Below are positions 18,265 to 33,411 of a DNA stretch of 58,083 nucleotides, in pieces. Each line of letters starts with the position of its first letter. Positions within the stretch are counted from its first letter, which is position 1. Under the pieces are notes generated by a model, which saw only the letters and a program-made list of their open reading frames with translations, was not told the DNA's origin and ran no database searches. This DNA is from a virus (Duplodnaviria; Caudoviricetes), in the IMG/VR virus record IMGVR_UViG_3300024344_000012, positions 1 to 58,083 of that record; one strand, written 5' to 3'. Made by a program: the position numbers and the translations under genes.

Positions 18265-19627
18265 CTCTTTAGTTGAATTTGGAACATCATTCCAATCTAA
18301 AGTTATAGCATCATGTTTAATTGATTCTACATTCCTACAGACTATTATGGAAGTTCTTCAGCCAGAGTATTTTGAATCGGATTCAAATAAATGGTTAGTT
18401 CAAGAAATAAATAAGTATTTTCTAAAATATAAAACTACACCTACATTGGAAGCTATTAAGATAGCAGTTGATGATGTTGAGAATGATGTACTAAAAATAT
18501 CTGTTATAGAAGCACTTAAAGATGCTTGGAGACATAGAGAAGCAAATGATCTACAATTTGTTCAAGAAAAAACATTAGATTTCTGTAAAAATCAGGTTTT
18601 AAAATCTGCTATTATGGAATCTGTAACTCTATTAGAAAATCAAAACTATGATGGTATAAAAACAGTTATAGATACAGCTATGAAAGCTGGAACTGCTGTA
18701 GATATCGGTCATGATTATAATGTGGGTATTGAAGAGAGATTAACTAAGTCTACAAGAGTTACGATAAAAACGCCTTGGGATATCACAAATGAGATTATGG
18801 ATGGTGGTCTTGGTGAGGGTGAGTTAGGTGTTGTAGTTGCGCCAGCAGGTGTTGGTAAGACTTGGTTACTTCAGAGTATCGCTGCAGGTGCTTTGAAAAG
18901 AGGATTTACTGTAGTTCATTATACATTAGAATTGAATGAAACATATGTTGGTTTGAGATATGATACTGTTTTTAGTGGTATAACTACACAAAATATTAAG
19001 TTTCAAAAAGATGAAGTGAAGAAAATCATCGACTCTATTGAGGGTAAGATGATTATTAAATACTACCCAACAAGAGCAGCAACTGTCAATACACTTTCAG
19101 CACATCTAAAACAATTAGAACTAAAGAATATAAAACCTGATATGGTTATTGTTGATTACGCTGATATCTTGAGAGATAATAGTGGTATGAGAGAGGTAAG
19201 ACATCAGTTAGGTGCTGTATATGAAGATTTGAGAGGATTAGCTGGTGAGTTTAAAGTTCCAATATGGACTGCATCACAAGCAAATCGTTCAGCGTTAGAA
19301 GAAGAGGTGATAGAAGCAACAAAGATTGCAGAGGCATATAGTAAGATCATGATAGCTGATTTTGTATTGAGTATCAGTAGAAAAGCTGAAGATAAGTTAA
19401 GTCATACTGCAAGATGTCATATCATTAAGAATAGATTTGGTATTGATGGTATAACTTATCCAATGAGTATGAATACCAATCTTGGTAAGATAGAAATCTA
19501 TGAATCCACAACTGCACCAGGTAAAGAACAACAAGGTAAGATGGATAATAGTGAAGAATTTAAGAGAAAATTATTGGCAAGTAAGTATAATGATATGAAA
19601 AATAGTGAAGTCGAGGGCTTCGAATAA
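18251..19627 (+). CDS. dnaB: Replicative DnaB-like helicase (T4 gp41-like)
   Basis: Walker A APAGVGKT, YTLEL, IVDYAD, WTASQANR, KNRFG. Confidence 0.93.
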   Translation: MENNSSLVEFGTSFQSKVIASCLIDSTFLQTIMEVLQPEYFESDSNKWLVQEINKYFLKYKTTPTLEAIKIAVDDVENDVLKISVIEALKDAWRHREANDLQFVQEKTLDFCKNQVLKSAIMESVTLLENQNYDGIKTVIDTAMKAGTAVDIGHDYNVGIEERLTKSTRVTIKTPWDITNEIMDGGLGEGELGVVVAPAGVGKTWLLQSIAAGALKRGFTVVHYTLELNETYVGLRYDTVFSGITTQNIKFQKDEVKKIIDSIEGKMIIKYYPTRAATVNTLSAHLKQLELKNIKPDMVIVDYADILRDNSGMREVRHQLGAVYEDLRGLAGEFKVPIWTASQANRSALEEEVIEATKIAEAYSKIMIADFVLSISRKAEDKLSHTARCHIIKNRFGIDGITYPMSMNTNLGKIEIYESTTAPGKEQQGKMDNSEEFKRKLLASKYNDMKNSEVEGFE

Positions 19628-19748
19628 AACTAAAAAGAAAAAATTATTTAAATATCATAAAAATTTTAAATAGTTTGTTTTTAATCTGATATATATTATA
19701 GTTATCATTGTATAAAGTTTATAGGAAATAGGAGGAGCCAGAAAGTAG

Positions 19749-21734: not shown

Positions 21735-21737
21735 AGC

Positions 21738-21767
21738 TTGACAAGTATACCTTTTTATTCGTATATT
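21738..21767 (+). promoter_or_regulatory. Sigma70-type promoter, class A (TTGACA-N18-TATATT)
   Basis: gcTTGACAagtatacctttttattcgTATATT; near-identical copies at 26878 and 56623. Confidence 0.75.
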
Positions 21768-21799
21768 CTAACATAGAAAATAGGGAAATTACAACCTAA

Positions 21800-24301
21800 A
21801 TGTATCAAAACATCTTTTATCAGTTTAAGAGACGAAGAATCCATATATGGGATGACAAGACTGGTTATTCAGTTCATCCATTCAGTCAATACGCCTATGT
21901 AAAAGATGGTAAGGGAACTCACACATCATTATATGGTGATAAGTTACGTAAATTACCTATCAGTAGAATAGATGAAACTGATACACCTTTTGAATCGGAT
22001 GTTGCACCAGAAATTAGGTTTTTGGTTGACAAATATACAGATTCAGATGAGGTATCTGAGGGTCATCGTGTTATGTTCTTTGATATTGAGGTTGAAGTTA
22101 CACAAGGTTTTCCTGATGTAAATAAAGCTGAAAATACAATTACATCTATCGCATTTTATGATGCACTAACAAGACAATACTATTGTTATGTTCTTGATGT
22201 AGAGAATAAGGTTAGTGCAAATCAGTTTGGTGAAACAACTGTCATTAAGTTCAAAGATGAAAGAGATTTACTAAAAGCATTCTATACAAAATATCTTGAG
22301 ATATCACCAACAATCATTAGTGGTTGGAATAGTGATAGATTTGACGTTCCATATCTATATAATAGAACTATAAGATTATTAGGACAAGAAGCTGCTAATT
22401 GTCTTTCACCAATTGGTATAGTAGAATTTCAAAAACATAGGGGAACATACAAGATTGCAGGTGTATCTTCACTTGATTATCTTGAATTATATAAGAAACT
22501 TACATTTGGTGAAAGGTCTTCATATCGTTTAGATGATGTTGGTGAGTTAGAAGTTGGATTGAAAAAAGTAGCTTATGACGGAACACTTAATGATTTATAT
22601 GATGGTGATAGAAACAAATTTGTAGAATATAATATAAATGACGTTATTATTCTTGAGAAACTTGATGCAAAGTTAGATTTTATTGGTATTGCTAGAGCTA
22701 TATGTCATTTGGGACACGTTCCTTATGAAGATGTTTATTACTCATCAAGATTTCTTGAGGGTGCTATTCTTGTTTATCTTAAAAAGGTTGGTATTGTAGC
22801 ACCAAATAAAGTTAGAGCAAACAGAGATTTGATGGGTGGTAATGATAAGTTTGCAGGTGCATATGTACAGGATCCACAAAAAGGTAAACACGAATGGGTG
22901 TATGACTTGGATATTACAAGTATGTATCCATCTATTATTATGAGTTTGAATATATCTCCTGAAACTAAATTAGGTAAGTTAGATAGCTGGGATGTAGAAC
23001 CATTTCTCAAAGGTGTTGACAGAACATATACTATTAAAGATAAGAATGGTAAAGAGAGTGCTAAACTAACTACAGGTGAGTTTCAAAACTTTTTGAAAGA
23101 CAATAATGTATCCATATCTTCTAATGGTGTATTATACACACAAGATAGAAAAGGTCTTATACCGACATTGTTAGAAAAGTGGTTTGACGATAGAGTTCAG
23201 TTTAGAAAGTTAGCTAAGAAGTTTGCTGATGAGGGTGATAAAGAGAAATATTCATACTTTGATAGACGACAATACATTCAAAAGGTTGTTCTAAACTCAT
23301 TGTATGGTGTGTTGGGATTACCTATATTTCGTTTTTATGATTTGGATAATGCAGAAGCAACCACAACAACGGGTGTAGAATTGATTAAATATACCAAGAG
23401 AATGTCTAATCATTATTATAATTCTACATTAGATGACAAAGAAGATTATTGTATTTACATTGATACAGATTCAGTTTTCTATTCTGCTATTCCTATCATT
23501 GAGAAGAAATATCCACACATAGATATTAAAGATGAAACTCTGATGACAAATAAAATCTTAGAGATTGCATCGGATGTTCAAAAGTATCTTAATGATTCAT
23601 ATGATCTATTCGCTCAAAAGTTTTGTAATGTAAATGAACATAGGTTTGAGATTAAGCAGGAATTAATTGCTAAAAGTGGATTATTTGTTACAAAGAAACG
23701 ATATGGTATGAAGATTATTAATGATAATGGTGTTAAGGTAAATAAACTTCATGTAAAAGGTTTGGATATTGTTCGTTCAAGTTTTCCTGTAGCATTTAAA
23801 GAGTGTTTAACTAAGGTATTGGAAGATATATTAGCAGATGTTCCTAACGAAAAGATTAGTGAATACATTCTTAACTTTAAGAAATCTATGAAACTGAAAA
23901 AATATGATACAATTGCTATGCCAACTTCAGTTAAAAATGTAAAGAAATTTATATCGATGGGTGAGGGTATTCTTATTGCTAAAAAGGGAGCTCCAGTTCA
24001 TGTTAAATCAGCAATCAATTACAATAACTTTTTGTTGATTAATAAATTGAATAGGAAATACCCATCAGTTGGTAATGGTGAAAAGATTAAGTGGACTTAT
24101 TTAAAAGATAATCCATTTAAGTTTGACACTATATGTTATAAAGGACATGAGGATCCACCACAAGTATTAAATTACATAAAACAATATATTGATACAGATA
24201 AGATTTACAAACAAGCACTTGCTAAGAAAGTCAAGATGTTGTATGAAGCATTAAAATGGGAAGAACCAAATGATGATTTTGGTTTTAATAAATTCTTTTA
24301 A
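21800..24301 (+). CDS. polB: Family-B replicative DNA polymerase (T4 gp43-like)
   Basis: ExoI FDIE, ExoII GWNSDRFD, ExoIII YNIND, DITSMYPS, K..LNSLYG, YIDTDS, KKRY. Confidence 0.96.
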   Translation: MYQNIFYQFKRRRIHIWDDKTGYSVHPFSQYAYVKDGKGTHTSLYGDKLRKLPISRIDETDTPFESDVAPEIRFLVDKYTDSDEVSEGHRVMFFDIEVEVTQGFPDVNKAENTITSIAFYDALTRQYYCYVLDVENKVSANQFGETTVIKFKDERDLLKAFYTKYLEISPTIISGWNSDRFDVPYLYNRTIRLLGQEAANCLSPIGIVEFQKHRGTYKIAGVSSLDYLELYKKLTFGERSSYRLDDVGELEVGLKKVAYDGTLNDLYDGDRNKFVEYNINDVIILEKLDAKLDFIGIARAICHLGHVPYEDVYYSSRFLEGAILVYLKKVGIVAPNKVRANRDLMGGNDKFAGAYVQDPQKGKHEWVYDLDITSMYPSIIMSLNISPETKLGKLDSWDVEPFLKGVDRTYTIKDKNGKESAKLTTGEFQNFLKDNNVSISSNGVLYTQDRKGLIPTLLEKWFDDRVQFRKLAKKFADEGDKEKYSYFDRRQYIQKVVLNSLYGVLGLPIFRFYDLDNAEATTTTGVELIKYTKRMSNHYYNSTLDDKEDYCIYIDTDSVFYSAIPIIEKKYPHIDIKDETLMTNKILEIASDVQKYLNDSYDLFAQKFCNVNEHRFEIKQELIAKSGLFVTKKRYGMKIINDNGVKVNKLHVKGLDIVRSSFPVAFKECLTKVLEDILADVPNEKISEYILNFKKSMKLKKYDTIAMPTSVKNVKKFISMGEGILIAKKGAPVHVKSAINYNNFLLINKLNRKYPSVGNGEKIKWTYLKDNPFKFDTICYKGHEDPPQVLNYIKQYIDTDKIYKQALAKKVKMLYEALKWEEPNDDFGFNKFF

Positions 24302-24327
24302 TTTGGAGAAATAACATGATACTTATA
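24302..24327 (+). promoter_or_regulatory. Bipartite phage promoter, class B (TTTG-N13-ATACTTATA)
   Basis: tttg gagaaataacatg atacttata, upstream of the clamp gene. Confidence 0.6.
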
Positions 24328-24354
24328 TATATATGTATATAAAGGAGTTACAAA

Positions 24355-25086
24355 ATGGATAAACAAACGTTGATGGGATTTGTCAACAGGTTTTACTTGG
24401 GTGGTCAGACACAATCTGCACCTGTAGTTTCAACAAAGGACACACTTAGTTGTTCATTCATCAATTCAGCAAAGAGTTGTGTTGGTGATATTGTTCTGGC
24501 TAAGAATGGTTTCGGTGATTATGAAATGGGTCTCTATGAGATTCAAGACTTAATCAAGTTACTTAATGTCGTAGATGGTGAGTTGGTTGTTGAAGCTAAT
24601 GAAGTTGGTGATGTAGTGTCTCAATTGGTCATCAAACAAAAAAGCAATAACACTAAAGTTAATTATGGGTTAGCCCGTCTTGATGTGGTTTCCAAGAAGC
24701 CAGATTTGACGAATGTTCCTGATTTTGATTTAGAATTAAAATTAGATAAACCATTCATCAGTTCTTTTATATCAGGTAAAGGCGCTTTAAGTGATGTTTC
24801 TACTTTCGCAGTCTTATCAGATGGTGTAGAAGCAAAGGTTGTTATTGGTTATAGTTCAACTACTCAATCAAACAAGGTAACTATTCCTGTAGAAGCCAAA
24901 AAAATGTCTTCTCTTGATGATGCTATCTTTTTTGATGCAGATACTTTCAAAGAAGTTCTAACTGCAAATAAAGATTGTGAATCAGCAACTCTTTATGTTT
25001 CAAGTCAAGGTTTGGCTAAAGTCAGTTTTAAGGTGGATGATTTCGATTCAAGTTACGTGTTGGTAGCTAAAACTACTGTAGACTAA
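24355..25086 (+). CDS. Sliding clamp (gp45/PCNA-like)
   Basis: 243 aa acidic alpha/beta protein directly after polB and near the clamp loader; C-terminal VSSQGLAKVSF...YVLV. Confidence 0.7.
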   Translation: MDKQTLMGFVNRFYLGGQTQSAPVVSTKDTLSCSFINSAKSCVGDIVLAKNGFGDYEMGLYEIQDLIKLLNVVDGELVVEANEVGDVVSQLVIKQKSNNTKVNYGLARLDVVSKKPDLTNVPDFDLELKLDKPFISSFISGKGALSDVSTFAVLSDGVEAKVVIGYSSTTQSNKVTIPVEAKKMSSLDDAIFFDADTFKEVLTANKDCESATLYVSSQGLAKVSFKVDDFDSSYVLVAKTTVD

Positions 25087-25850
25087 TGGAAAACTATGTA
25101 GATAAATCAAAAGTTTATCTGCAGGAAATAGATAAAAAAACTGCTAAGAGAATAATAGAAAAAAATCATTATTCTCATAAATTTTCTTCTTGTAGATATG
25201 CCATAGGTATATTTCACAAGTCAGATAATCCACATCCTTTTTTTAAGGATATGAGTGAAGAAAAACTTGTTGGTTGTATGACTTATGGCTATCCTGTAGG
25301 AAGATCAGTAATGGGTTCTATTTTTAAAGATGAAAATATCTTGCAGACAAAGAATATTTTGGAGTTGACAAGATTATTCATACATGATGGTTATGGAAAG
25401 AATATAGAATCTTATTCTATATCACAATCATTCAAGTGGTTGAAAAAGTATGATGAGGATGTTAAGGTACTAATCAGTTATGCAGATCCTGATAGATTAC
25501 ATTTGGGTGGTATTTACAAAGCTACCAATTGGTTATATCAAGGTGCAGGATTGAATTTGATGCCAAATCATTCGATATCGTTGACTAATCCATATGAGTG
25601 GATACATAGTAGAACTGTATCAGCTACTTGGGGAAGTCATAATGTAGATAAGTTGAAAGCAGCTATAGGACACACATTTTGGAGAAGAAAAGAACCTGAA
25701 AAACATCGTTACATTTATTTCATAGGAAATAAAAAAGAAAATAAAAAATTTATGAAGAACTTAAAATATGAATCTAAACCATATCCTACAGATCCAGAAC
25801 AATATGTTCCACCTGTAGAGGAGATTGTAGTTGATACAAAATTTAAATAA
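25086..25850 (+). CDS. mom: Mu Mom-like DNA adenine modification enzyme (GNAT fold), copy 1
   Basis: NHYSH, LELTRL, NIESY.IS, ISYADP...H.G.IYKATNW.YQG, KHRYIY. Confidence 0.8.
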   Translation: MENYVDKSKVYLQEIDKKTAKRIIEKNHYSHKFSSCRYAIGIFHKSDNPHPFFKDMSEEKLVGCMTYGYPVGRSVMGSIFKDENILQTKNILELTRLFIHDGYGKNIESYSISQSFKWLKKYDEDVKVLISYADPDRLHLGGIYKATNWLYQGAGLNLMPNHSISLTNPYEWIHSRTVSATWGSHNVDKLKAAIGHTFWRRKEPEKHRYIYFIGNKKENKKFMKNLKYESKPYPTDPEQYVPPVEEIVVDTKFK

Positions 25851-26535
25851 TAATGATAAAAAACAATTGTTTGACAATGGTTATTTGGTATTTGAAGCAA
25901 GTGATGATTTCAAAAAAGAATTATTATCATTTAAAAATGAATTAGACTATAAATCATTGTTATATAAAAAATACACACGTGCAGTTGCAGGTGAATTATG
26001 TATTAATGGAATGAAAGCATCTGGAGATTTAAGAGAACTTAAAAAATTAAGGCAATCAGTAATGAAAGCTGGTCATGATATATCTCAAATGTGGTATACT
26101 ATTGAAAAAGATGAGGAATTAAACACTTCTTCTTGTTTGAATTATCTGAATAAAGAATTACAAGAAACTGTTAATTTTTTTTATAAAGACATAAAATTTC
26201 CAGGAATAAGTGAAAATAATTATTTGATGTATGATAGAGGTTGTAGGTTTGGATTTCATAAAGATGGTGGGTATATTAATGTAGGTGGTGTAAACAAAGC
26301 TACTTCAATTTGTACTATTTTGATTTATATGGATGAAGAAGAATATGAGACTAGTGGTGGAGAAATAGTTGTAAAAACAACTGAAAATGAATTAATTACA
26401 GCACCAACATCACTTGGAACTTGTGTTATTTTGGAGTTAACTAAAAATGATTTAGAGCATAGAGTTAATGAAGTTAAGAAACAAAAATATATTAGAGAAA
26501 ATTTAAGATTTACTTTGACAAAAAGTGGAGGATAA
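25831..26535 (+). CDS. 2OG-Fe(II) dioxygenase
   Basis: HKD...ILIYM...GGE...HRV...R (HxD...H triad plus 2OG-binding Arg). Confidence 0.75.
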   Translation: MIQNLNNNDKKQLFDNGYLVFEASDDFKKELLSFKNELDYKSLLYKKYTRAVAGELCINGMKASGDLRELKKLRQSVMKAGHDISQMWYTIEKDEELNTSSCLNYLNKELQETVNFFYKDIKFPGISENNYLMYDRGCRFGFHKDGGYINVGGVNKATSICTILIYMDEEEYETSGGEIVVKTTENELITAPTSLGTCVILELTKNDLEHRVNEVKKQKYIRENLRFTLTKSGG

Positions 26536-26540
26536 TCATA

Positions 26541-26876
26541 ATGAGTAAATTAGTTGGAGCACTTTGTCTTAGTATTTTAGGACATATAATAGCATTTTTT
26601 CACATGAATGGGCAATTTAAGTGGGATTTTATGAAATCTCAATGGTGGATAATATTAGCAGGATTACCTATAAGTTATCTGTTTTATTATTCAACACGAC
26701 TTTCATATGAACACTTTGGTTATGTGTGGAATATTAGATTAATAGGATTTGGTCTTGGTAACTTGATATTTGCAGTAATGACTTGGGGTATATTAGGTGA
26801 GATACCTAATTGGAAGACAGGTATTTGCTTAGTTTTGGCATTTACAATAATTTTAATACAACTTGTGAATAAATAG
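26541..26876 (+). CDS. Small multi-pass membrane protein (SMR/DMT-like size)
   Basis: 111 aa with about four hydrophobic segments. Confidence 0.6.
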   Translation: MSKLVGALCLSILGHIIAFFHMNGQFKWDFMKSQWWIILAGLPISYLFYYSTRLSYEHFGYVWNIRLIGFGLGNLIFAVMTWGILGEIPNWKTGICLVLAFTIILIQLVNK

Positions 26877-26877
26877 C

Positions 26878-26907
26878 TTGACTTATACTGGTTTTTATTC
26901 GTATATT
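26878..26907 (+). promoter_or_regulatory. Sigma70-type promoter, class A (TTGACT-N18-TATATT)
   Basis: gcTTGACTtatactggtttttattcgTATATT. Confidence 0.75.
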
Positions 26908-26939
26908 CTGGTATATTAAATTGGAGAAATATAAGCCTT

Positions 26940-27503
26940 ATGGTAATAGGAATTGATGTAGATGGAGTGTTGAGGGATTTTTGTGATGGACTTATTAAAG
27001 TGGTTCGTAAACAGTATCCTCAATACCTTAAAAAAGATTTTGTGAGAATAGAAAATTGGAATTTTAAAAACGATTTCAATTGTTCTCACGATGATATAAA
27101 ACAGATATATCGACATAATCACGCTGAAGAGATTATGGGTAATGGTATTCCAATATATGGTGCTATAGAACAAATGTATGACTTATTTGATTGGGCTGAT
27201 GAAAAAGGTCATAGTCTTGTTTGTGTAACATCACAACAACCACATATAAGACATTACACTTTGTCTTGGTTAGGTAAGTATGGGTTAAATTTTGATACTG
27301 TATACTTTACAAGAGGTAGACATAAATGGAGAACTCCTGTAGATTATCTTGTAGATGATTCACCAGAAAACTTTGATAATTGGGTTAGAGGTCGTGGTAT
27401 GCAAGAGGGATATATACTTATGGATCACATCTATAACCAACACACTAAATCAAGTTATAGAATTAAAGAACTAAAACAAGTAAAGGAAATAATAGATGGC
27501 TGA
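26940..27503 (+). CDS. HAD-family 5'(3')-deoxyribonucleotidase (NT5C-like)
   Basis: IGIDVDGVLRD, VTS, T..WL, K...D.LVDDSPEN, YN. Confidence 0.85.
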   Translation: MVIGIDVDGVLRDFCDGLIKVVRKQYPQYLKKDFVRIENWNFKNDFNCSHDDIKQIYRHNHAEEIMGNGIPIYGAIEQMYDLFDWADEKGHSLVCVTSQQPHIRHYTLSWLGKYGLNFDTVYFTRGRHKWRTPVDYLVDDSPENFDNWVRGRGMQEGYILMDHIYNQHTKSSYRIKELKQVKEIIDG

Positions 27504-28413
27504 ACATTCTTTATGGGTAGAAAAATACAGACCGACAAGGTTAGAAAACTATGTTGGTAATGAACATTTAAAAGCAAAGGTAGAAAGGTATATCAAATCA
27601 AATGATGTTCCACATTTACTTTTGTTTGGTAGAGCTGGTACAGGTAAAACCACACTTGCTAAATTGATTGTCAAGAATATTGAGTGTGATTATCTATATA
27701 TTAACGCATCTGATGAGAATAGTGTAGATACAGTTCGTAATAAGGTGAGACAATTCGCATCTACGATTGGTTTCAAAGATATGAAAGTGATTGTCTTAGA
27801 TGAGTGTGATTATATTACACCTAACGCACAAGCGGCTTTACGTAATCTTATGGAGACTTTTAGTAAACATTGTAGATTTATATTGACTTGTAACTTTGTA
27901 GAAAGAATAATCGATCCAATACAAAGTCGTTGTCAAGTATTTGAGATTATACCACCAAGTAAGAAAGATGTAGCTCTTCATCTTACTAAGGTTATGGATA
28001 AGGAAAAGATAACTTATGGTAATGAAGACTTAAAAGTTTTGATTGATAGTAGTTATCCTGATGTTAGAAAGATTATCAATGCAACTCAAAGAAGTGTTGT
28101 TGATAATAAGGTTGTTATGGATAGACAAGCAACCATACAGAATGATTATAAACTGAAAGTATTAGATATTCTTAAAACACAAGATAAGAAAACTGCTTTC
28201 GCAAACTTACGACAACTACTTGCTGATAATGCTATCAGAGATTATTCAGATTGTTTCAGATTATTGTATGATAATGTGGATGAATTTGCAGAGGGTAATA
28301 TGGCAGCTGTTATATTGATATTAGCCAGATATGAACAGTCCGATATGCAAGTTGTCGATAAAGAAATAAACTTTATGGCTATGTTAATTGAATTATTAGG
28401 AGTAATAAAATGA
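27496..28413 (+). CDS. Clamp loader AAA+ subunit (gp44/RFC small subunit-like)
   Basis: LWVEKYRP, GRAGTGKTT, INASDE, LDECD, QSRC. Confidence 0.95.
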   Translation: MAEHSLWVEKYRPTRLENYVGNEHLKAKVERYIKSNDVPHLLLFGRAGTGKTTLAKLIVKNIECDYLYINASDENSVDTVRNKVRQFASTIGFKDMKVIVLDECDYITPNAQAALRNLMETFSKHCRFILTCNFVERIIDPIQSRCQVFEIIPPSKKDVALHLTKVMDKEKITYGNEDLKVLIDSSYPDVRKIINATQRSVVDNKVVMDRQATIQNDYKLKVLDILKTQDKKTAFANLRQLLADNAIRDYSDCFRLLYDNVDEFAEGNMAAVILILARYEQSDMQVVDKEINFMAMLIELLGVIK

Positions 28414-28673
28414 CTTCACCAGAAAGTATTGTAGAATTATTTCATTCTTTGTATTTTATGTTGTTTACAATTATTACTTTTGAAACTGTTAACCATTTAA
28501 ATCCATATCCTTGTAATGAGGGAATAGTTACACCAGCTTGGGTTGAGGTATATGAATTTGAAAGTGATTCTACTTATGTCAAAAATTTTAGAAAGATAGT
28601 CAAAGAAGAAAATTGGCAAGATAAATATGAAATAATGAGTAAAGATTGCTCATTTATAAAGGAGGAAGAATAA
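28410..28673 (+). CDS. Hypothetical protein with N-terminal hydrophobic segment
   Basis: ATGA overlap and AGGAG SD. Confidence 0.5.
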   Translation: MTSPESIVELFHSLYFMLFTIITFETVNHLNPYPCNEGIVTPAWVEVYEFESDSTYVKNFRKIVKEENWQDKYEIMSKDCSFIKEEE

Positions 28674-28674
28674 A

Positions 28675-28956
28675 ATGAGTATGCACCCAAAAGGTAGAAT
28701 ACAAAAACCAAAACAGCAAGTTAAAGTTGATTTAGGACAAGCAGAGACTTTACAATGTGAAAAATGTACAAATTATTTGTTCATCACATCGTTTGTCTTG
28801 AAGAAAATATCAGCACTTATGTCTCCAAATGGACAAGAGGGAATAGTACCTATTCAGGTCTATAGTTGTGGTAATTGTGGACACGTTCCAGCAAAACTAC
28901 TTGAAGGAACTGATATTACAGGTAAAGAACTTGGCGAAGAAGAAACAGACAGTTAA
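28675..28956 (+). CDS. Zn-ribbon protein
   Basis: CEKC...CGNCG. Confidence 0.65.
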   Translation: MSMHPKGRIQKPKQQVKVDLGQAETLQCEKCTNYLFITSFVLKKISALMSPNGQEGIVPIQVYSCGNCGHVPAKLLEGTDITGKELGEEETDS

Positions 28957-29437
28957 ACGAAAAGGTGTATTTGATTATTTAAATCAAATCACAAAATATC
29001 AAAAGAGAGGATTTTGGGAATCACTTTCTGATGAAGATAAAAAGGGTTGGTCTACATTTCTTGTAAACCGATTCTTATCAATGAGATCAGATTTCCTACC
29101 CATAGTGAATGAGGTTCAGAAATATAATTTGAAGCCTGAATTGATATACAAAACGTATATGGATATCATTCCAAAAGGAAATTACTACTTGAGGTACATC
29201 AAGGGAAAGAAGAAGAAAAATATGGATCACCCACAATGGATGATAAATGTAGTTCGTAATGACTTAGAGGTTAGTGTTAGAGAAGCAGTTGATGCTATTG
29301 AAATGTATATGCTAACTGAAGCTGGTCAGATGGAACTATCAGATATGTTACAAAAATATGGTGTAGAAACAAAACAACTTAAATCAGTTGGTTTGTATTT
29401 CGAATCAGACGGTACAGACATAAGAACAATTGCCTGA
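28931..29437 (+). CDS. Clamp loader small subunit (T4 gp62-like); likely start TTG 28931
   Basis: FDYLNQI...WSTFLVNRFLSM...IVNEVQ...IPK...LRYIK. Confidence 0.7.
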   Translation: MAKKKQTVKRKGVFDYLNQITKYQKRGFWESLSDEDKKGWSTFLVNRFLSMRSDFLPIVNEVQKYNLKPELIYKTYMDIIPKGNYYLRYIKGKKKKNMDHPQWMINVVRNDLEVSVREAVDAIEMYMLTEAGQMELSDMLQKYGVETKQLKSVGLYFESDGTDIRTIA

Positions 29438-30062
29438 TTTTAAAGACTATACAGTTGAGGTAGTTCCTCGTATGGCTATACAAGAGTTTATACATAAACA
29501 TCACTATAGTCATAACACCAATGGAATACAAGGTTTGGAGTGTTTTGCATTATTTGCTCCAGGTCATTTTGGTATTCCAAAAATGGTAGGTGCTATGATG
29601 TATGCCATACCATCTATGCCAAATACTGCAAAAGCATACAATCCCATAAATCCAGATAGATGTGTAGAATTAAGAAGATTAGTTTGTATTGATGATACAC
29701 CAAAGAATGCAGAAAGTTTTTTCATAGGTAAAACTATAAGATGGTTAAAACAAAATACAAATTATGAAGTTATAATTTCATTTGCAGATAAAGAACATGG
29801 GCATACAGGAGTTATTTATAGAGCTAGTAATTTTGAGTTTATTGGTGAAACTGGTGCAGGTAGAGTTTTGATGGTAGATGGTAAGGAATATCATAGTAGG
29901 TCTCTAAGTCAACCAATCAAACCATATAGTAGAAGAATTCGTGCAAGATGGGAAGCTAAGGATCCTGATGTATTTTTCAGAAAAAGGAAGAGTAAAAACA
30001 GATATGTTTATTACTTGAATAAAGGTATTAAAAAGAAGATAGAAAGATTAAAAAAGGCTTGA
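29430..30062 (+). CDS. mom: Mu Mom-like DNA adenine modification enzyme (GNAT fold), copy 2
   Basis: HHYSH, VELRRL, PKNAESFFI, ISFAD...GHTGVIYRASNF...G, KNRYVY. Confidence 0.8.
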   Translation: MPDFKDYTVEVVPRMAIQEFIHKHHYSHNTNGIQGLECFALFAPGHFGIPKMVGAMMYAIPSMPNTAKAYNPINPDRCVELRRLVCIDDTPKNAESFFIGKTIRWLKQNTNYEVIISFADKEHGHTGVIYRASNFEFIGETGAGRVLMVDGKEYHSRSLSQPIKPYSRRIRARWEAKDPDVFFRKRKSKNRYVYYLNKGIKKKIERLKKA

Positions 30063-30088
30063 CTTATAATGAAAAAAAGTTGTATATT
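30059..30088 (+). promoter_or_regulatory. Sigma70-type promoter, class A (TTGACT-N18-TATATT), probably leaderless
   Basis: gcTTGACTtataatgaaaaaaagttgTATATT; ATG only 5 nt downstream. Confidence 0.6.
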
Positions 30089-30093
30089 TAGAT

Positions 30094-30957
30094 ATGAAAA
30101 AGATTAGTTACAGTCAATATTCACAATGGGCTGTATGTCCACATAAGTGGAAACTAAATTATATAGATGAGTTAAGAACATTCAAGGGTAACATACATAC
30201 CTTGTTTGGTTCTGCTATGCATGATGTATTACAGACATATTTAACTGTAATGTATAATGATACTATTAAGATGGCAGATTCATTACCATTAGCAAGTATG
30301 TTATTACATAGAATGAAAAAATACTACAAAGAGATAGTAGAAGATTTACATGGTGAAGAAGTATCATCTCAAGAGGAGATGCAAGAGTTCTATGAGCATG
30401 GTTTAGCTATAATAGAGTGGTTTGTTAAGAAACGTGGTATGTATTTCAATAAGAAAGGTTATGAGTTAGTTGGTATAGAAGTTCCTATTGAATATGATTT
30501 ACCAAACAAGATTAAGTTTGTTGGTTATATTGATGTTCTAATGTATGATACTGTAAGAGAAAAGTATAAGATTATAGATATTAAGACTTCTACGATGGGT
30601 TGGAATAAGTGGGCTAAAGCTGACAAGACTAAGACAGACCAATTATTATTATACAAACAATTCTATGGTGCTCAACACGATATACCATTAGATAAGATAG
30701 ACGTAGAATATTTTATTGTAAAACGTAAATTATATGACAAAGTAGACTGGCCACAAAGAAGAGTTCAGACATTCACACCAGCAAATGGAACACCAAGTAT
30801 TAATAAAGTTACTAATAATATACAGAGTTTCATTGATGAATGTTTTGTTGATGGAAAGTATAACCAAGAACATATTTATAGGAAAGAAGCTTCAAAAAAG
30901 AACTGTCGTTTCTGTGAGTTTAATCAAACTGAATATTGTGATGCAGGAGTCAAATAA
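30094..30957 (+). CDS. PD-(D/E)xK exonuclease, Cas4/AddB-like with four Cys
   Basis: ISYSQ...CP, FGSAMH, E, GYID, IIDIKT, QL.LY, CRFC...C. Confidence 0.85.
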   Translation: MKKISYSQYSQWAVCPHKWKLNYIDELRTFKGNIHTLFGSAMHDVLQTYLTVMYNDTIKMADSLPLASMLLHRMKKYYKEIVEDLHGEEVSSQEEMQEFYEHGLAIIEWFVKKRGMYFNKKGYELVGIEVPIEYDLPNKIKFVGYIDVLMYDTVREKYKIIDIKTSTMGWNKWAKADKTKTDQLLLYKQFYGAQHDIPLDKIDVEYFIVKRKLYDKVDWPQRRVQTFTPANGTPSINKVTNNIQSFIDECFVDGKYNQEHIYRKEASKKNCRFCEFNQTEYCDAGVK

Positions 30958-30959
30958 AT

Positions 30960-31403
30960 ATGTACGAAAGATTTAACATAAGTCTAAGATTACCATTACA
31001 TCTATTTATGGAACAAGATTCTGAACAAATAGTTGTAGATAAAATAAAAGAGTGTTATTCTAAGATTACTTCTTCTTGGACATTAAAATTTTGGATGGAT
31101 TCTGACATTATCAATGCAAAAAATGTAGTAGAATTCTCAAAAAGACACGAAGATGCTTTTAAACATAGGGTTTCATTTAAACCAAAAGAAAACATAAATG
31201 TCAATGATTATGTTTTGTTTGAAGTAGAAGATCCTAATAATCCACTACCAAGCTCTGATAGTTTTATCAGAAGTAGATATACCTACAAAACTCAAGTCGG
31301 AGAATTGATACCAAAAGGATTAGATGATTATATAAAAATATCTAATTTTATTTTAAGTGTTAACCAAAGAAAGACAACAGAAATATCGAGACAATCAAGA
31401 TAG
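30960..31403 (+). CDS. Hypothetical protein
   Basis: 147 aa ORF; may be fused to the downstream SLOG ORF. Confidence 0.55.
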   Translation: MYERFNISLRLPLHLFMEQDSEQIVVDKIKECYSKITSSWTLKFWMDSDIINAKNVVEFSKRHEDAFKHRVSFKPKENINVNDYVLFEVEDPNNPLPSSDSFIRSRYTYKTQVGELIPKGLDDYIKISNFILSVNQRKTTEISRQSR

Positions 31404-31795
31404 CAATAATTGGTTCAAGAACATATACTAATAAATTAAAGATTAAAGAGTTTGTTTACAAACTAAAAAAAGAACATGGCGATTTAATCGAAGTTGTTAG
31501 TGGTGGAGCTAAGTTTGGTGCAGATTATTATGCAAAAGAATATGCACTTGACTTTGGTATAAAATATACCGAATTTCCACCATATCACGAACCACACAAT
31601 TCTTACTGTATAGAAAATCAATTTAAATATGGTAAAGAATACAATGTTAAACATTTCTTTATCAGAAATGAAGCTATTATCAAATATTCAGATGGAGTTG
31701 TTGCTTTTGTTAAAGATGGAGAGATAACATCAGGAACAGAAAACGCAGTTGGTCATGCCAAAAGACATGGCAAAAAAGTTGTGTTTATTTCTTGA
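31364..31795 (+). CDS. SLOG (YspA/DUF2493/DprA-like) nucleotide-binding protein without a canonical start codon
   Basis: Not in ORF track: IKIAIIGSRTY...VVSGGAKFGAD...FIRNEAIIKYSDGVVAF...SGTENAVGHAKRHGKKV*. Confidence 0.75.
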   Translation, partial: PKKDNRNIETIKIAIIGSRTYTNKLKIKEFVYKLKKEHGDLIEVVSGGAKFGADYYAKEYALDFGIKYTEFPPYHEPHNSYCIENQFKYGKEYNVKHFFIRNEAIIKYSDGVVAFVKDGEITSGTENAVGHAKRHGKKVVFIS

Positions 31796-31832
31796 TATAT
31801 TTATATTTATATATATATGAATGGAGTTACAT

Positions 31833-32024
31833 ATGGAAAGTAAACTAACATCGGTTAAAGTATTAACCGATCTATATAAGAAATTCAAAGGATTAAGCAT
31901 TGAAGAGGAATTTACTCTTCAAAAATTAGTCAATCGTTCAATGGATTTATATTGTACGGATTTGAAATTTCAAGAAAAAATAATGACCTACAGCAACTTA
32001 ACACAAAGTGGTAGTAGGTATTAG
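31833..32024 (+). CDS. Ribbon-helix-helix DNA-binding protein
   Basis: KLTSVKV (strand), LYKKFK (helix), TLQKLVNRSMDLY (helix); GGAG SD before ATG 31833. Confidence 0.55.
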   Translation: MESKLTSVKVLTDLYKKFKGLSIEEEFTLQKLVNRSMDLYCTDLKFQEKIMTYSNLTQSGSRY

Positions 32025-32025
32025 G

Positions 32026-33411
32026 ATGGCAAAGAAGAAAAAAATAATGTTACTGTCAGACGACTTGAGAATGTCAAGTGGTGTCGGTACAATGTCAAGA
32101 GAATTTGTTCTTGGTACAATAGATAAATATGATTGGGTTCAATTAGGGGGAGCAATTAATCATCCTGAAGAGGGAAATGTTGTAGATATATCAGAGTCGG
32201 TTCAAAAAGAGCAAAATGTAGAAGATGCATATCTAAAGATATATCCAATAAGTGGTTATGGTAATGATGAAGTATTGAGAAGTGTTATGGGAATGGAAAA
32301 ACCTGATGCAATTTTACACTACACCGATCCAAGATTTTGGAATTGGTTGTATCAAATGGAACATGAAATAAGACAAAATATTCCTATTTTTTATTACAAT
32401 ATTTGGGATGATTTACCTTATCCACATTGGAACGAACCTTTTTATGAAAGTTGTGATTTGATTATGAATATATCACGACAAACAGTTAATATTGTAGATA
32501 ATGTATGTCAGAATAAACCAAGAACTGATTGGGATAACACTTATATTCCACATGGTATAAATCATAAGACATTTTTTCCAATAGACACTTTACATAAGGA
32601 TTATGATAAAGTTCAAAAGTACAGAAGACATATATTTGGTGGTAAAAAATATGATTTTGTAATTTTTTGGAACAACAGAAATATTCGTAGAAAATTACCT
32701 GGTGATGTTATAATGGCATTTAAAACATTTTGTGAATCTGTCGGTAAAGAAAAAGCACAGAATTTTGCATTAGTGATGCATACACAAAAAGTTGATGAGA
32801 ATGGAACTGATTTGCCAGAAGTAGTAAAAAAATTATTGCCAGATTGGATGAATGTGATTTTTTCAGATGAAAAGTTAGACAATAATCAAATGTGTTGGAT
32901 GTATAATATAGCAGATGTTACAATCAACATAGCATCCAATGAGGGCTTTGGATTAGGAACTTGCGAATCATTGATGTGTGGCAAACCAATTGTAGTTAAC
33001 GTTACAGGTGGTTTACAAGATCAATGTGGTTTTAAGAAAGATGACGGTTTATATTTAACGGTAGATGATTACAATGATGAGTTTCAATCCAATCATAGAG
33101 GGAAATATAAGGAGTGCGGTGAATGGGCGTTCCCAGTATTTCCCTCTAACATTTCATTACAAGGTTCACCACCAACACCATATATCTTTGATGACAGACC
33201 AAGTTATGAAGATGCTGCAGAGGGATTAAAGCATTTTTATGACATGGGTGAAGAGAAGAGAAAAGAGTGTGGTGAAAAAGGAGTTGAGTTTGTTCAGACA
33301 GAAGAGATAGGTATGACAGCAGAAAATATGAGCAAACGATTTATCAAAGATATGGACACTGCATTCGAAAAGTGGACACCAAGAAAACGATACACCTTAT
33401 TTAAGGCATAG
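32026..33411 (+). CDS. GT-B (GT4-like) glycosyltransferase
   Basis: SGVG, IPHG, NRNIRRK, EGFGLGTCES (EX7E), TGGLQD. Confidence 0.85.
   Translation: MAKKKKIMLLSDDLRMSSGVGTMSREFVLGTIDKYDWVQLGGAINHPEEGNVVDISESVQKEQNVEDAYLKIYPISGYGNDEVLRSVMGMEKPDAILHYTDPRFWNWLYQMEHEIRQNIPIFYYNIWDDLPYPHWNEPFYESCDLIMNISRQTVNIVDNVCQNKPRTDWDNTYIPHGINHKTFFPIDTLHKDYDKVQKYRRHIFGGKKYDFVIFWNNRNIRRKLPGDVIMAFKTFCESVGKEKAQNFALVMHTQKVDENGTDLPEVVKKLLPDWMNVIFSDEKLDNNQMCWMYNIADVTINIASNEGFGLGTCESLMCGKPIVVNVTGGLQDQCGFKKDDGLYLTVDDYNDEFQSNHRGKYKECGEWAFPVFPSNISLQGSPPTPYIFDDRPSYEDAAEGLKHFYDMGEEKRKECGEKGVEFVQTEEIGMTAENMSKRFIKDMDTAFEKWTPRKRYTLFKA

What the first reader, a model, noticed from the sequence alone, without database searches (positions are those of the whole stretch)
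24355..30062. Two divergent Mom-like adenine-modification enzymes coupled to the clamp and clamp-loader genes: candidate replisome-coupled DNA hypermodification system
Seen: mom1 starts in the clamp's stop codon (TAATG at 25084-25088). mom2 overlaps the end of the gp62-like loader subunit. Both keep HYSH, EL.RL, SY/FAD, H.G.IY.A.N and K.RY but are highly diverged from each other, especially around HSR (WIHSRTVSATWG vs EYHSRSLSQP). Known: Mu Mom is a GNAT-fold enzyme making N6-carbamoylmethyl-adenine in a sequence-specific way, protecting against restriction, and Mu has a single late gene. Inference: two specificities, a heteromer, or a two-step modification delivered at the fork by the phage clamp; the embedded 2OG-Fe(II) oxygenase could yield an undescribed base.
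Basis: partly seen in the sequence, partly recalled or inferred. Interest (0 to 1): 0.8.

Follow-up and report, generated by a model that had tools for sequence, protein, structure and literature searches.

The report
Paired Mom enzymes beside phage clamp
An uncultured marine phage carries two distant copies of the Mom DNA-adenine-modifying enzyme inside its DNA-replication gene block, and one copy has a conserved loop that is predicted, not shown, to hook it onto the phage's sliding clamp.

Summary
ORFs 25086-25850 (Mom1) and 29430-30062 (Mom2) both match Pfam Mom PF25680 (E 6e-47 and 2e-39). They are 30% identical to each other. Mom1 starts in the clamp gene's stop (TAATG), and Mom2 overlaps the gp62-like gene's end by 8 nt.

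Both keep Mu Mom residues H58, Y59, R111, S124, D149 and Y159, but not R151 or W48. They belong to two deep clades, each with its own conserved slot. In 41 clamp-ascertained relatives that cover both slots, 22 carry both Moms, 1 carries Mom1 only, and 18 carry a Mom at neither slot.

New here: Mom1 has a 13-residue loop with an invariant H-x-F-F (45 of 45 orthologues after the clamp, 0 of 61 Mom2-type). This resembles the [K/R]-F-F end of the clade's PolB. Co-folding places the loop in the clamp's interdomain-loop pocket (ipSAE 0.73, best control 0.00).

The oxygenase is a strain-specific cassette, missing in near-identical relatives and precisely skipped in natural contigs. It gives no support for a new base.

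Verdict: real paired Mom enzymes. Clamp tethering of Mom1 is plausible but unproven.

The parts
21800..24301 (+). Family B DNA polymerase. Its C-terminus ends ...DDFGFNKFF, the presumed clamp-binding tail (last four residues at 24287-24298).
   Evidence: translation. It is 47% identical to the PolB of Microcystis phage Mel-JY01. Nearly all PolB tails listed for the clade end in [K/R]FF, FFGF or FFSF.
24355..25086 (+). Sliding clamp (gp45/PCNA fold).
   Evidence: AF2 model with pLDDT 94 and pTM 0.91. Foldseek top hits are PCNA at TM 0.72-0.76. The profile's best PDB hit is the RB69 clamp 1b77 at E 0.0044.
25086..25850 (+). Mom1: a Mom-family GNAT, inferred to be a tRNA-dependent N6-adenine DNA modifier.
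   Evidence: PF25680 E 6e-47. PDB 8BV8 Mu Mom by sequence at E 9e-8 and by fold at E 3e-10. H58, Y59, R111, S124, D149, Y159 and W181 are kept.
25218..25265 (+). Loop insertion of Mom1 (residues 45-60, ...NPHPFFKDMSEEK), absent from Mu Mom. H50-x-F52-F53 is the candidate clamp-binding motif.
   Evidence: Alignment. HxFF is found in 45 of 45 orthologues after the clamp. pLDDT is below 50 in the monomer model. Residues 50-56 contact clamp residues 116-121, 40, 43, 218-220 and 235-240 in the co-fold.
25831..26535 (+). 2OG-Fe(II) oxygenase, a strain-specific accessory cassette.
   Evidence: PF13640 30.3 bits. Absent in close relatives. No relatives found in the viral-contig scan. Contigs of runs X7 and X9 join 25831 to 26541, skipping 709 nt.
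26541..26876 (+). Small hydrophobic protein of unknown function, conserved beside Mom1 in the close relatives.
   Evidence: translation. No Pfam, PHROG or NCBIfam hit. 71-98% identical in close relatives.
26940..27503 (+). NT5C-type 5'-deoxyribonucleotidase.
   Evidence: PF06941 E 2e-15.
27496..28413 (+). Clamp-loader AAA+ subunit (gp44-like).
   Evidence: phrog_168 E 5e-84. AAA and DNA_pol3_delta2 domains.
28410..28673 (+). 87-aa ORF, variable (a presence/absence cassette).
   Evidence: No family hit. Not detected in any relative by tblastn. Joints from 28413 onwards skip it in runs X3, X7 and X9.
28675..28956 (+). 93-aa Cys-pair protein, conserved between gp44-like and gp62-like in the whole clade and in Mel-JY01.
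   Evidence: No family hit.
28868..29437 (+). Clamp-loader small subunit (gp62-like). The 5' end is uncertain because the mechanical GTG start overlaps the 93-aa ORF by 89 nt.
   Evidence: phrog_225 E 5e-16. PF16790 E 0.002, below its cut-off.
29430..30062 (+). Mom2: a second Mom-family GNAT with a short loop lacking FF and a different HTH-like insertion (E at Mu W181).
   Evidence: PF25680 E 2e-39. 8BV8 by sequence at E 2e-13. H58, Y59, R111, S124, D149 and Y159 are kept. 0 of 61 Mom2-type proteins have an aromatic pair in the loop.
30094..30957 (+). PD-(D/E)XK nuclease, the conserved downstream end of the module.
   Evidence: PF12705 E 1e-18. Conserved after Mom2 or gp62 in relatives and in Mel-JY01.

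Best explanation
The phage carries two active Mom-family enzymes inserted at two gene junctions of a T4-like replication block: PolB, clamp, [Mom1], gp44-like, 93-aa protein, gp62-like, [Mom2], nuclease.

By homology with Mu Mom, each is inferred to take an aminoacyl group (glycyl in Mu) from a charged tRNA and put it on N6 of adenine in double-stranded phage DNA after replication. This would give a bulky adenine adduct that blocks host restriction.

The genes sit in the replication block rather than in a late operon. The enzymes are therefore presumably made while DNA is being copied.

Mom1 additionally carries an exposed loop with an invariant H-x-F-F, the same kind of motif as the C-terminal tail of the phage's own PolB. 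It is predicted to insert this loop into the clamp pocket under the interdomain connecting loop. Mom1 would then ride on clamps left on new DNA and modify it close behind the fork.

Mom2 lacks the motif and differs in the HTH-like DNA-reading insertion. It most likely works untethered on a different sequence context and widens protection.

The oxygenase between Mom1 and the membrane protein is an unrelated mobile cassette.

Shown here: family membership, conserved catalytic core, conserved synteny, motif conservation, and the cassette nature of the oxygenase.

Inferred only: the chemistry, the tRNA donor, the different specificities, and clamp binding (which rests on prediction alone).
For: Family and catalytic core:
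- PF25680 and phrog_1384 matches.
- Matches to PDB 8BV8 by sequence and, for Mom1, by fold.
- H58, Y59, R111, S124, D149 and Y159 are invariant in 45 of 45 Mom1 orthologues after the clamp and in 61 of 61 Mom2-type proteins.
- The mechanism of Mu Mom comes from PMC13219725.

Two old paralogues with fixed slots:
- The tree has two deep clades, with SH-aLRT 98 and 90.
- 45 unique Mom1-type proteins sit after a clamp, and 49 of 61 unique Mom2-type proteins sit after gp62.
- In 41 clamp-ascertained loci covering both slots, 22 have both Moms, 1 has Mom1 only, and 18 have a Mom at neither slot.

Clamp tethering of Mom1:
- HxFF is present in 45 of 45 after-clamp Mom1 proteins and 0 of 61 Mom2-type proteins. 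In tandem arrays the first copy has it in 23 of 23 cases and the second copy in 0 of 18.
- PolB tails across the clade end in [K/R]FF, FFGF or FFSF.
- The loop is low-confidence, and so probably flexible, in the monomer model.
- The co-fold of clamp and Mom1 gave ipSAE 0.73, 0.76 and 0.73, with a best control of 0.00. In the tool's calibration the mark was reached by 58 of 80 solved complexes and 2 of 110 mismatched pairs. Runs agreed in at least 90% of contacts, and partner pLDDT was at least 81.
- The contacted clamp residues (116-121, 40, 43, 218-220, 235-240) include columns that are invariant or nearly so: P116, G219, L220, L236, V237 and K40.
- In relatives the same slot holds N6/N4 DNA methyltransferases and other enzymes whose C-termini end KFWG, KFWDTK, HTWF or HDFF. 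The window background for such an aromatic pair in the last six residues is 4 of 57 proteins.

Different DNA reading: fixed differences between the clades include W181 to E inside the HTH-like insertion.

Oxygenase unrelated.
Against: - No experiment exists for any protein of this clade that I could see.
- R151, which is essential in Mu, is D in Mom1 and E in Mom2. The Mu dimer residue W48 is not kept. The donor or product could therefore differ from Mu's.
- The co-fold may be 'memory' of the many PCNA-peptide structures. An exposed FF loop could be docked into that pocket regardless of biology, and the controls were unrelated proteins, not FF-bearing loops. Only one clamp protomer was modelled.
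- The motif is not a canonical PIP box.
- The Mom1 monomer model is mediocre (pLDDT 70.9, with residues 134-160 below 50).
- Mom1 is not a fixed part of the clamp module. Of 73 clamp-ascertained loci with enough downstream sequence, only 32 have Mom1 after the clamp, while 20 go straight to gp44. The nearest isolate, Mel-JY01, has the same backbone with no Mom.
- HxFF-bearing Moms also occur 3 kb upstream of PolB or after gp62, so adjacency to the clamp gene is not required.
- The aromatic C-termini of the other slot genes were noticed post hoc.
- Fixed differences between the clades are not concentrated in the HTH-like insertion: 3 of 23 lie at Mu positions 175-209, a region that is mostly variable in both clades.
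Confidence: 0.5

Rival explanations
1. There are two independent Mom enzymes with different site specificities that are simply co-expressed with the replication genes. The junctions after the clamp and after gp62 are insertion hot spots for accessory genes. There is no physical link to the clamp, and the HxFF loop serves another role such as tRNA or DNA binding or dimerisation.
For: - The slot after the clamp is variable: Mom1 in 32 loci, nothing in 20, and other genes in 21 of 73 loci.
- The backbone exists without Moms in Mel-JY01.
- Cassettes come and go at gene boundaries.
- Gene overlaps are generic in this window.
- A shared invariant F aligns in the Mom2 loop (Mom1 F53 with Mom2 F47), which hints at a family-wide role for this loop.
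- The analogous T4 alpha-glucosyltransferase-gp45 claim was not reproduced (bioRxiv 10.64898/2025.12.06.692756, passages read).
Against: - The co-fold passes its controls at 0.73 against 0.00.
- H-x-F-F is the invariant part of an otherwise variable, flexible loop, and it mirrors PolB's tail.
- The loop is lost only in copies that coexist with an HxFF-bearing copy.
- Unrelated enzymes in the same slot carry PolB-like aromatic C-termini.
Confidence: 0.33
2. Mom1 and Mom2 form a heterodimer, or act in sequence on the same adenine. They would then be one two-subunit enzyme rather than two enzymes.
For: - Mu Mom is an obligate homodimer (PMC13219725, section 13).
- Mom1 and Mom2 are nearly always present or absent together: 22 loci with both, 1 with Mom1 only, and 18 with a Mom at neither slot.
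- In tandem-array relatives, 17 of the 36 Mom1-clade copies without HxFF (found outside the after-clamp slot) carry D149N, at a residue needed in Mu. That looks like a non-catalytic partner.
Against: - Both window copies keep the whole catalytic core.
- Mom2-type genes occur without a Mom1 at the clamp slot in some relatives: L142, L145, L150 and L234.
- 134 of 134 and 164 of 164 isolate-phage records matched by Mom1 and Mom2 have a single Mom place each, so one Mom suffices elsewhere.
- The Mu dimer residue W48 is not conserved in either copy.
- The co-occurrence may reflect one clade rather than repeated events.
Confidence: 0.1
3. One reading: the 2OG-Fe(II) oxygenase processes the Mom product, or the DNA, to give an undescribed base.
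For: The gene lies between Mom1 and the membrane protein and has an HxD...H pattern (FHKDG ... LEHRV, translation). Other oxygenases, 30% identical, occupy the same slot in L009 and L015/L016.
Against: - It is absent from relatives whose Mom1 is 86-96% identical (L003, L004, L007, L008, L010-L014).
- The IMG/VR pattern scan found no relative.
- Natural contigs skip it exactly.
- Its only similarities are to PF13640 and weakly to PiuC/PKHD hydroxylases. No TET/JBP or AlkB family appeared at E 0.01 or better.
Confidence: 0.03

Closest known systems
Phage Mu Mom (PDB 8BV8; Silva et al., Nat Commun 2026, PMC13219725)
   Same: Same Pfam family. Mom1's fold model is closest to 8BV8 (E 3e-10). H58, Y59, R111, S124, D149 and Y159 are conserved. 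An insertion aligns with Mu's HTH-like region 175-209.
   Different: - Identity to Mu is only about 23-28%.
- R151 and W48 are not kept.
- There are two paralogues per genome, against one in Mu and in every matched isolate record.
- The genes sit in the replication block, not behind a late promoter with Com control.
- Mom1 has a 13-residue HxFF loop and a roughly 20-residue C-terminal tail that Mu lacks.
- The donor tRNA, the product and the target motif are untested.
Clamp clients of T4-type phages (the gp43 C-terminal tail on gp45, PDB 1b8h), and the contested T4 alpha-glucosyltransferase-gp45 interaction
   Same: A short aromatic motif is predicted to bind the pocket under the clamp's interdomain loop. 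The idea that a DNA-modifying enzyme rides the clamp behind the fork was proposed for T4 alpha-GT (bioRxiv 10.64898/2025.12.06.692756, passages read).
   Different: - The motif here is internal, in a beta-hairpin loop, not C-terminal.
- The enzyme is a tRNA-dependent GNAT, not a glycosyltransferase.
- The T4 alpha-GT interaction was not reproduced in that preprint.
- That gp43's tail binds gp45 is recalled knowledge. The 1b8h entry was seen only as a listing.
Eukaryotic DNMT1-PCNA coupling (recalled, no call)
   Same: A DNA base-modifying enzyme is recruited to newly replicated DNA through a PCNA-pocket-binding motif.
   Different: The enzyme family (SAM methyltransferase) and the motif (canonical PIP box) are unrelated, and the purpose is maintenance methylation. 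This is an analogy only.
T4 alpha- and beta-glucosyltransferase pair
   Same: Two paralogous or parallel DNA-modification enzymes in one lytic phage, argued to raise counter-defence together (abstract and passages).
   Different: The chemistry and target base differ. In T4 the two compete for the same hmC. Here different adenine contexts are inferred, not shown.

Membership tests
Mom family (Pfam PF25680 / phrog_1384) | Profile match above the curated cut-off. | tested here: met
   Mom1 scores 160.3 bits and Mom2 136.0 bits against a cut-off of 27.1. phrog_1384 E 2e-48 and 8e-55.
Mom family (Pfam PF25680 / phrog_1384) | GNAT fold with the Mom-specific HTH-like insertion. | tested here: met
   The Mom1 AF2 model (pLDDT 70.9) has Mu Mom 8bv8 as top hits at E 3e-10 and TM 0.53-0.66, followed by generic GNATs at E above 1e-3. 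Mom2 was not folded. It aligns by sequence to 8bv8 chain residues 63-221 at E 2e-13.
Mom family (Pfam PF25680 / phrog_1384) | Residues that mutagenesis of Mu Mom showed to be needed: H58, Y59, R111, S124, D149, R151, Y159, W48, W181. | tested here: inconclusive
   H58, Y59, R111, S124, D149 and Y159 are kept in both. W181 is kept in Mom1 only. R151 is D in Mom1 and E in Mom2. W48 is K in Mom1 and M in Mom2. R151 is also absent from other phage Mom-like proteins (Polaribacter, Vibrio F100, RaK2), so it may be specific to Mu's lineage.
Mom family (Pfam PF25680 / phrog_1384) | Gly-tRNAGly-dependent formation of N6-carbamoylmethyl-dA on dsDNA. | not testable with these tools
   This needs expression and nucleoside LC-MS. 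[quoted passage not shown]
Sliding clamp (gp45/PCNA fold) | Two-domain clamp fold, encoded between PolB and the clamp loader. | tested here: met
   pLDDT 94. PCNA hits at TM 0.72-0.76 and E about 1e-12. RB69 clamp at E 0.0044 by profile. Synteny.
Clamp-binding (PIP-like) motif in Mom1 | Canonical PIP box Q-x-x-[LIM]-x-x-[FY]-[FY] (recalled definition). | tested here: not met
   The loop reads S-D-N-P-H-P-F-F, with consensus D-N-x-H-K-F-F. Only the aromatic pair fits.
Clamp-binding (PIP-like) motif in Mom1 | Likeness to this clade's own PolB clamp-binding tail, and predicted docking in the interdomain-loop pocket. | tested here: met
   PolB tails end [K/R]FF, FFGF or FFSF. Mom1's loop H-x-F-F is invariant in 45 of 45. 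Co-fold ipSAE is 0.73 against a control of 0.00, contacting clamp residues 116-121, 40, 43, 218-220 and 235-240. This is a prediction, not a measurement.
Nucleic-acid 2OG-Fe(II) oxygenases (TET/JBP, AlkB) | Profile match to a nucleic-acid-acting oxygenase family. | tested here: not met
   Only PF13640 (the P4H-like 2OG-FeII_Oxy_3) matched in Pfam at E 0.01 or better. Weak matches to PiuC/PKHD hydroxylases at E 0.003-0.4.

The most novel reading that the evidence does not exclude
In this abundant marine phage clade, the gap between the clamp gene and the clamp-loader gene is a 'clamp-client island'. Whatever DNA-modifying enzyme sits there carries a PolB-like aromatic clamp-binding motif. The examples are Mom1 with an internal HxFF loop, N6/N4 methyltransferases ending KFWG or KFWDTK, and a PLP-enzyme cluster whose first gene ends HDFF.

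Mom1 would then be the first tRNA-dependent DNA hypermodifying enzyme that rides a sliding clamp and modifies nascent DNA processively behind the fork. It would be paired with an untethered second Mom of different specificity.
Probability: 0.3. Interest if true: 0.8.

Novelty: new variant of a known kind. Interest (0 to 1): 0.62.

Why it matters
Mom chemistry was only recently explained, and only for Mu, a temperate phage with one late-expressed copy (glycine taken from charged tRNA and put on DNA adenine).

Here a large group of uncultured lytic marine phages carries two or three Mom paralogues inside the replication block. One lineage carries a motif that could tether it to the sliding clamp.

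If binding is real, it would give a concrete, testable case of replication-coupled DNA hypermodification in a virus. That idea was raised for T4 alpha-glucosyltransferase and is now disputed. It would also explain how a lytic phage keeps nascent DNA protected from restriction.

The paired paralogues also offer a natural experiment on how Mom enzymes choose their DNA context, and possibly their aminoacyl-tRNA.

My paper searches found no paper linking Mom to a clamp. The main text of PMC13219725 has no occurrence of 'clamp', 'paralog' or 'two copies'. Its supplements, which I could not open, may show more.

Tried and rejected
- Promoters and terminators. The sigma-70-type scan of 19000-32500 gave 78 sites against 77.9 expected, and no + strand terminator between 22.5 and 32.5 kb. 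Nothing can be concluded about operon structure or timing.
- Nucleotide similarity to isolate phages. Only 170-nt patches inside Mom2 matched, so no close cultured relative exists in that collection.
- tRNA genes. None in the window, so there is no phage-encoded donor tRNA in this 30%-complete record.
- Clamp in Polaribacter phage P12002L, which has a Mom1-clade gene without HxFF. There was no match to the clamp profile. The tool itself says an empty answer shows nothing, and this is one record.
- Oxygenase relatives. The viral contigs pattern scan found none. That method finds close relatives only.
- Reads. All runs laid were Logan contigs, so base modification, expression level and transcript ends could not be assessed.
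- Habitat. I make no claim beyond the run labels listed.
- Heteromer of Mom1 with Mom2, Mom2 with the clamp or loader, and methyltransferase with its own clamp. None was run, because the co-fold cap is one job.
- Enrichment of clade-fixed differences in the HTH-like insertion. Not found: 3 of 23 fixed differences lie there, and the region is mostly variable in both clades.
- The Homolog A lead. 'Mom Homolog A' of PMC13219725 comes from an IMG metagenome whose number also appears in the tool-given contig name of L102, which carries both Mom types. I could not check whether Homolog A is either gene, because the supplements are closed. It counts as a lead only.

Full report
**What is there.** The window is a 58,083-base IMG/VR virus record, estimated 30% complete, with every sizeable ORF on the + strand and about 31% G+C.

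The finding lies in a T4-like replication block. In order, the genes are:
- a DnaB-like helicase and a class II ribonucleotide reductase;
- a family B polymerase, 21800-24301;
- a sliding clamp, 24355-25086;
- Mom1, 25086-25850;
- a 2OG-Fe(II) oxygenase, 25831-26535;
- a small hydrophobic protein;
- an NT5C nucleotidase;
- a gp44-like clamp-loader ATPase, 27496-28413;
- two small ORFs of 87 and 93 aa;
- a gp62-like loader subunit, 28868-29437;
- Mom2, 29430-30062;
- a PD-(D/E)XK nuclease.

The clamp has no Pfam match. Even so, its AF2 model (pLDDT 94) matches PCNA structures at TM 0.72-0.76, and its profile's best PDB hit is the RB69 clamp.

TAATG at 25084-25088 joins the clamp stop to the Mom1 start. 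Mom2's TTG start overlaps the gp62-like stop by 8 nt.

Both ORFs are clear Mom-family members (PF25680 E 6e-47 and 2e-39; phrog_1384). They are the only two in the record and are 30% identical.

The overlap itself carries little weight. By mechanical ORF starts, 34 of 56 junctions in this window overlap, 8 of them by the same single base.

**What Mom does, as now known.** I read the abstract and sections 13, 14 and 38 of Silva et al. 2026 (PMC13219725), plus passages found by term search.
- Mu Mom transfers glycine from Gly-tRNAGly to N6 of adenine in double-stranded DNA, after replication, at SAS sites.
- The glycyl group then rearranges on the base to N6-carbamoylmethyl.
- Mom is a GNAT homodimer with an HTH-like insertion (residues 175-209) that is needed for activity and is modelled in the DNA major groove.
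- Residues needed include W48, H58, Y59, R111, S124, D149, R151, Y159 and W181.

I aligned Mu Mom with 171 unique Mom proteins from related contigs.
- H58, Y59, R111, S124, D149 and Y159 are invariant in all 45 Mom1 orthologues that follow a clamp and in all 61 Mom2-type proteins.
- R151 is replaced (E or D in Mom1, H or E in Mom2), as it is in other phage Mom-like proteins.
- W48 is not kept.
- W181 is kept in the Mom1 clade but is E or K in the Mom2 clade.

Both window proteins therefore look catalytically competent. Identity of donor and product with Mu is an inference.

**Relatives and synteny.** Scans of IMG/VR with Mom1 and with Mom2 each returned 80 loci. I mapped the window's 14 proteins on them by tblastn.

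The order PolB, clamp, Mom1, gp44, 93-aa, gp62, Mom2, nuclease recurs down to about 59% PolB and 40% clamp identity. Among the 171 unique Mom proteins, 45 Mom1-type follow a clamp and 49 of 61 Mom2-type follow gp62.

I built a quick IQ-TREE tree of 56 rows: 50 representatives after clustering the 171 at 85% identity, plus the two window proteins and four isolate proteins.
- It has two deep clades, with SH-aLRT 98 and 90.
- The Mom2 clade also holds the Vibrio phage F100 and RaK2 Mom-like proteins.
- The Mom1 clade holds Polaribacter phage P12002L.

The two genes are therefore old paralogues, not a recent duplication.

More distant relatives (PolB 44-52% identical) carry two or three tandem Mom1-clade genes. 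These lie about 3 kb upstream of PolB, or between gp44 and the 93-aa gene.

**Correcting the ascertainment.** Those loci were all found through Mom, so I also scanned with the clamp alignment. That gave 542 relatives, of which the best 80 were kept.
- Of the 73 loci with at least 900 nt downstream of the clamp, 32 have Mom1 next, 20 go straight to gp44, and 21 have other genes there.
- Of the 41 loci that cover both slots, 22 have Mom1 and Mom2, 1 has Mom1 only, and 18 have a Mom at neither exact slot. A few of those 18 carry a Mom1-type gene further after gp62.

The nearest isolate, Microcystis phage Mel-JY01 (PolB 47% identical), has the same backbone with no Mom at all.

The Moms are therefore optional inserts at fixed junctions of a conserved backbone, and in this sample they tend to come and go together. 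That co-occurrence may reflect a single clade.

In isolate phages, the Mom1 query matched 134 records and the Mom2 query 164. Every record had a single matching place. Multi-Mom genomes are thus a feature of these uncultured phages.

**The new element: a clamp-binding candidate in Mom1.** Relative to Mu, Mom1 has a 13-residue insertion between two strands of the GNAT core (residues about 45-60...NPHPFFKDMSEEK).

Within an otherwise variable loop, H-x-[F/W]-F is invariant:
- it is present in 45 of 45 Mom1 orthologues after a clamp;
- it is absent from 61 of 61 Mom2-type proteins;
- in tandem arrays the first copy has it in 23 of 23 cases and the second copy in 0 of 18.

Nearly all PolB C-termini listed for the clade end in [K/R]FF, FFGF or FFSF. 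This is the position of the clamp-binding tail in T4-type polymerases (recalled; PDB 1b8h appeared only as a listing).

In the Mom1 monomer model the loop has pLDDT below 50, as expected for a flexible linear motif.

- Scores were ipSAE 0.73, 0.76 and 0.73, with a best control of 0.00.
- In the tool's calibration, 58 of 80 solved complexes and 2 of 110 mismatched pairs reached the mark. These counts hold only roughly, because my own alignments were used.
- The runs agree in at least 90% of contacts, and the partner's pLDDT is at least 81.
- Mom1 residues 50-56 (HPFFKDM) touch clamp residues 116-121, which lie in the linker between the two clamp domains by the DSSP. They also touch 40, 43, 218-220 and 235-240.
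- Several of these clamp residues are invariant or nearly so in the clamp alignment.
- From memory, this corresponds to the PIP-box pocket of PCNA.

The model supports binding but does not show it. The many solved PCNA-peptide complexes could make any exposed FF loop dock there, and the controls were unrelated proteins rather than FF-bearing loops.

**A wider pattern, noticed post hoc.** Where relatives have other genes in the clamp-to-gp44 slot, these include:
- N6/N4 DNA methyltransferases (L174 PF01555 E 3e-47; L225 E 7e-43);
- a roughly 406-aa methyltransferase-like protein (PF01555 E 1e-5, just under the cut-off), sometimes in tandem;
- a PLP-dependent enzyme followed by a CxxCxxCC protein;
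- an HNH endonuclease.

Four of the five protein types examined end in an aromatic pair like PolB's:
- L174 ends ...NKFWDTK;
- L225 ends ...EKFWG;
- L203 ends ...KHTWF;
- L187 (the PLP enzyme) ends ...KHDFF.

In the window, 4 of 57 proteins, PolB included, have [FW][FW] in their last six residues.

This suggests that the slot collects clamp clients, several of them DNA modifiers. I saw it only after looking for it, so it should be tested independently.

**The oxygenase.** It matches PF13640 just above the cut-off and shows an HxD...H pattern. Its only other similarities are weak ones to PiuC/PKHD hydroxylases.
- Relatives whose Mom1 is 86-96% identical go from Mom1 straight to the membrane-protein gene (for example L003, L007, L008, L010-L014).
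- A few carry a different oxygenase, 30% identical, at that spot (L009, L015, L016).
- The IMG/VR pattern scan found no relative.
- Contigs of two public runs join 25831 to 26541, skipping exactly the 709 nt of this ORF. Other joints skip the 87-aa ORF.

It is a mobile cassette, and nothing ties it to Mom chemistry.

**Comparison with what is known.** The two genes are members of the Mom family. What differs from Mu is:
- the copy number;
- the placement in the replication block instead of a late, Com-controlled operon;
- the replaced R151;
- the HxFF loop and C-terminal tail of Mom1.

Coupling of a phage DNA-modifying enzyme to the clamp was proposed for T4 alpha-glucosyltransferase. It was not reproduced in a 2025 preprint (passages read). 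DNMT1-PCNA is the eukaryotic analogy (recalled).

My searches found no paper that links Mom to a clamp or describes Mom pairs. The main text of PMC13219725 has no occurrence of 'clamp', 'paralog' or 'two copies'. That homologue comes from a metagenome whose number also appears in the contig name of L102, a locus with both Mom types.

**Verdict.**
- Real feature, confirmed as described.
- Best reading (0.5): two active Mom enzymes expressed with the replication genes, Mom1 tethered to the clamp through its HxFF loop, and Mom2 free and reading a different context.
- Main rival (0.33): the same two enzymes without any physical link to the clamp.
- A heteromer (0.1) remains untested, and an oxygenase-dependent new base is unlikely (0.03).
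- Novelty: a new variant of a known kind.

Noticed in passing
L174:7720-8694, L225:7701-9128, L179:2154-3377, L187:7713-9204, L203:7719-9104: In relatives the clamp-to-gp44 slot holds N6/N4 DNA methyltransferases, a roughly 406-aa methyltransferase-like protein (sometimes tandem), and a PLP enzyme with a CxxCxxCC protein. Four of the five protein types end in a PolB-like aromatic pair (KFWDTK, KFWG, HTWF, HDFF).
   Followed up: partly
Tandem Mom arrays, e.g. L020:6532-8732, L040:7250-8714, L071:6840-8723: In relatives with tandem Mom1-clade genes, the first copy always has the HxFF loop and D149 (23 of 23). D149N occurs in 17 Mom1-clade copies, all of which lack HxFF: 10 of the 18 second copies plus 7 copies in other contexts. 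These may be non-catalytic or altered partners.
   Followed up: partly
window 28410-28673 and 25831-26535: Both the 87-aa ORF and the oxygenase behave as presence/absence cassettes bounded at gene ends. Public contigs join across them, and the 87-aa ORF was not detected in any relative by tblastn.
   Followed up: partly
L004-L008:6541-7270 (between PolB and clamp); L036:4339-5439, L022:14291-15313 and L098:3323-3566 (inside PolB): Close relatives have about 730 nt of extra sequence between PolB and the clamp that the window lacks. Several relatives have PolB matches split by 0.2-1.1 kb, possibly an intein, intron or homing-endonuclease insertion. L003/L083 show a stop near the PolB C-terminus.
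   Followed up: no
window 25788-25847 (Mom1 residues 235-254): Mom1 orthologues after the clamp all carry a roughly 20-residue C-terminal tail beyond the end of Mu Mom, with a recurring E-I-x-K-I-E-V pattern. Its role is unknown, and it was not part of the confident predicted clamp interface.
   Followed up: no
L163:17033-20181 (Microcystis phage Mel-JY01): The nearest isolate has no Mom. At the post-gp62 position it carries a hypothetical 184-aa gene, an S-adenosylmethionine synthase and two more hypothetical genes before the nuclease. This is another sign that the junction collects accessory genes.
   Followed up: no
window 34790-35566 and 35554-36039: Two further window proteins contain an internal H-x-F-F (GHRFF in a DUF6071 protein, and KHEFF). 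Whether these are chance or further clamp clients was not examined.
   Followed up: no
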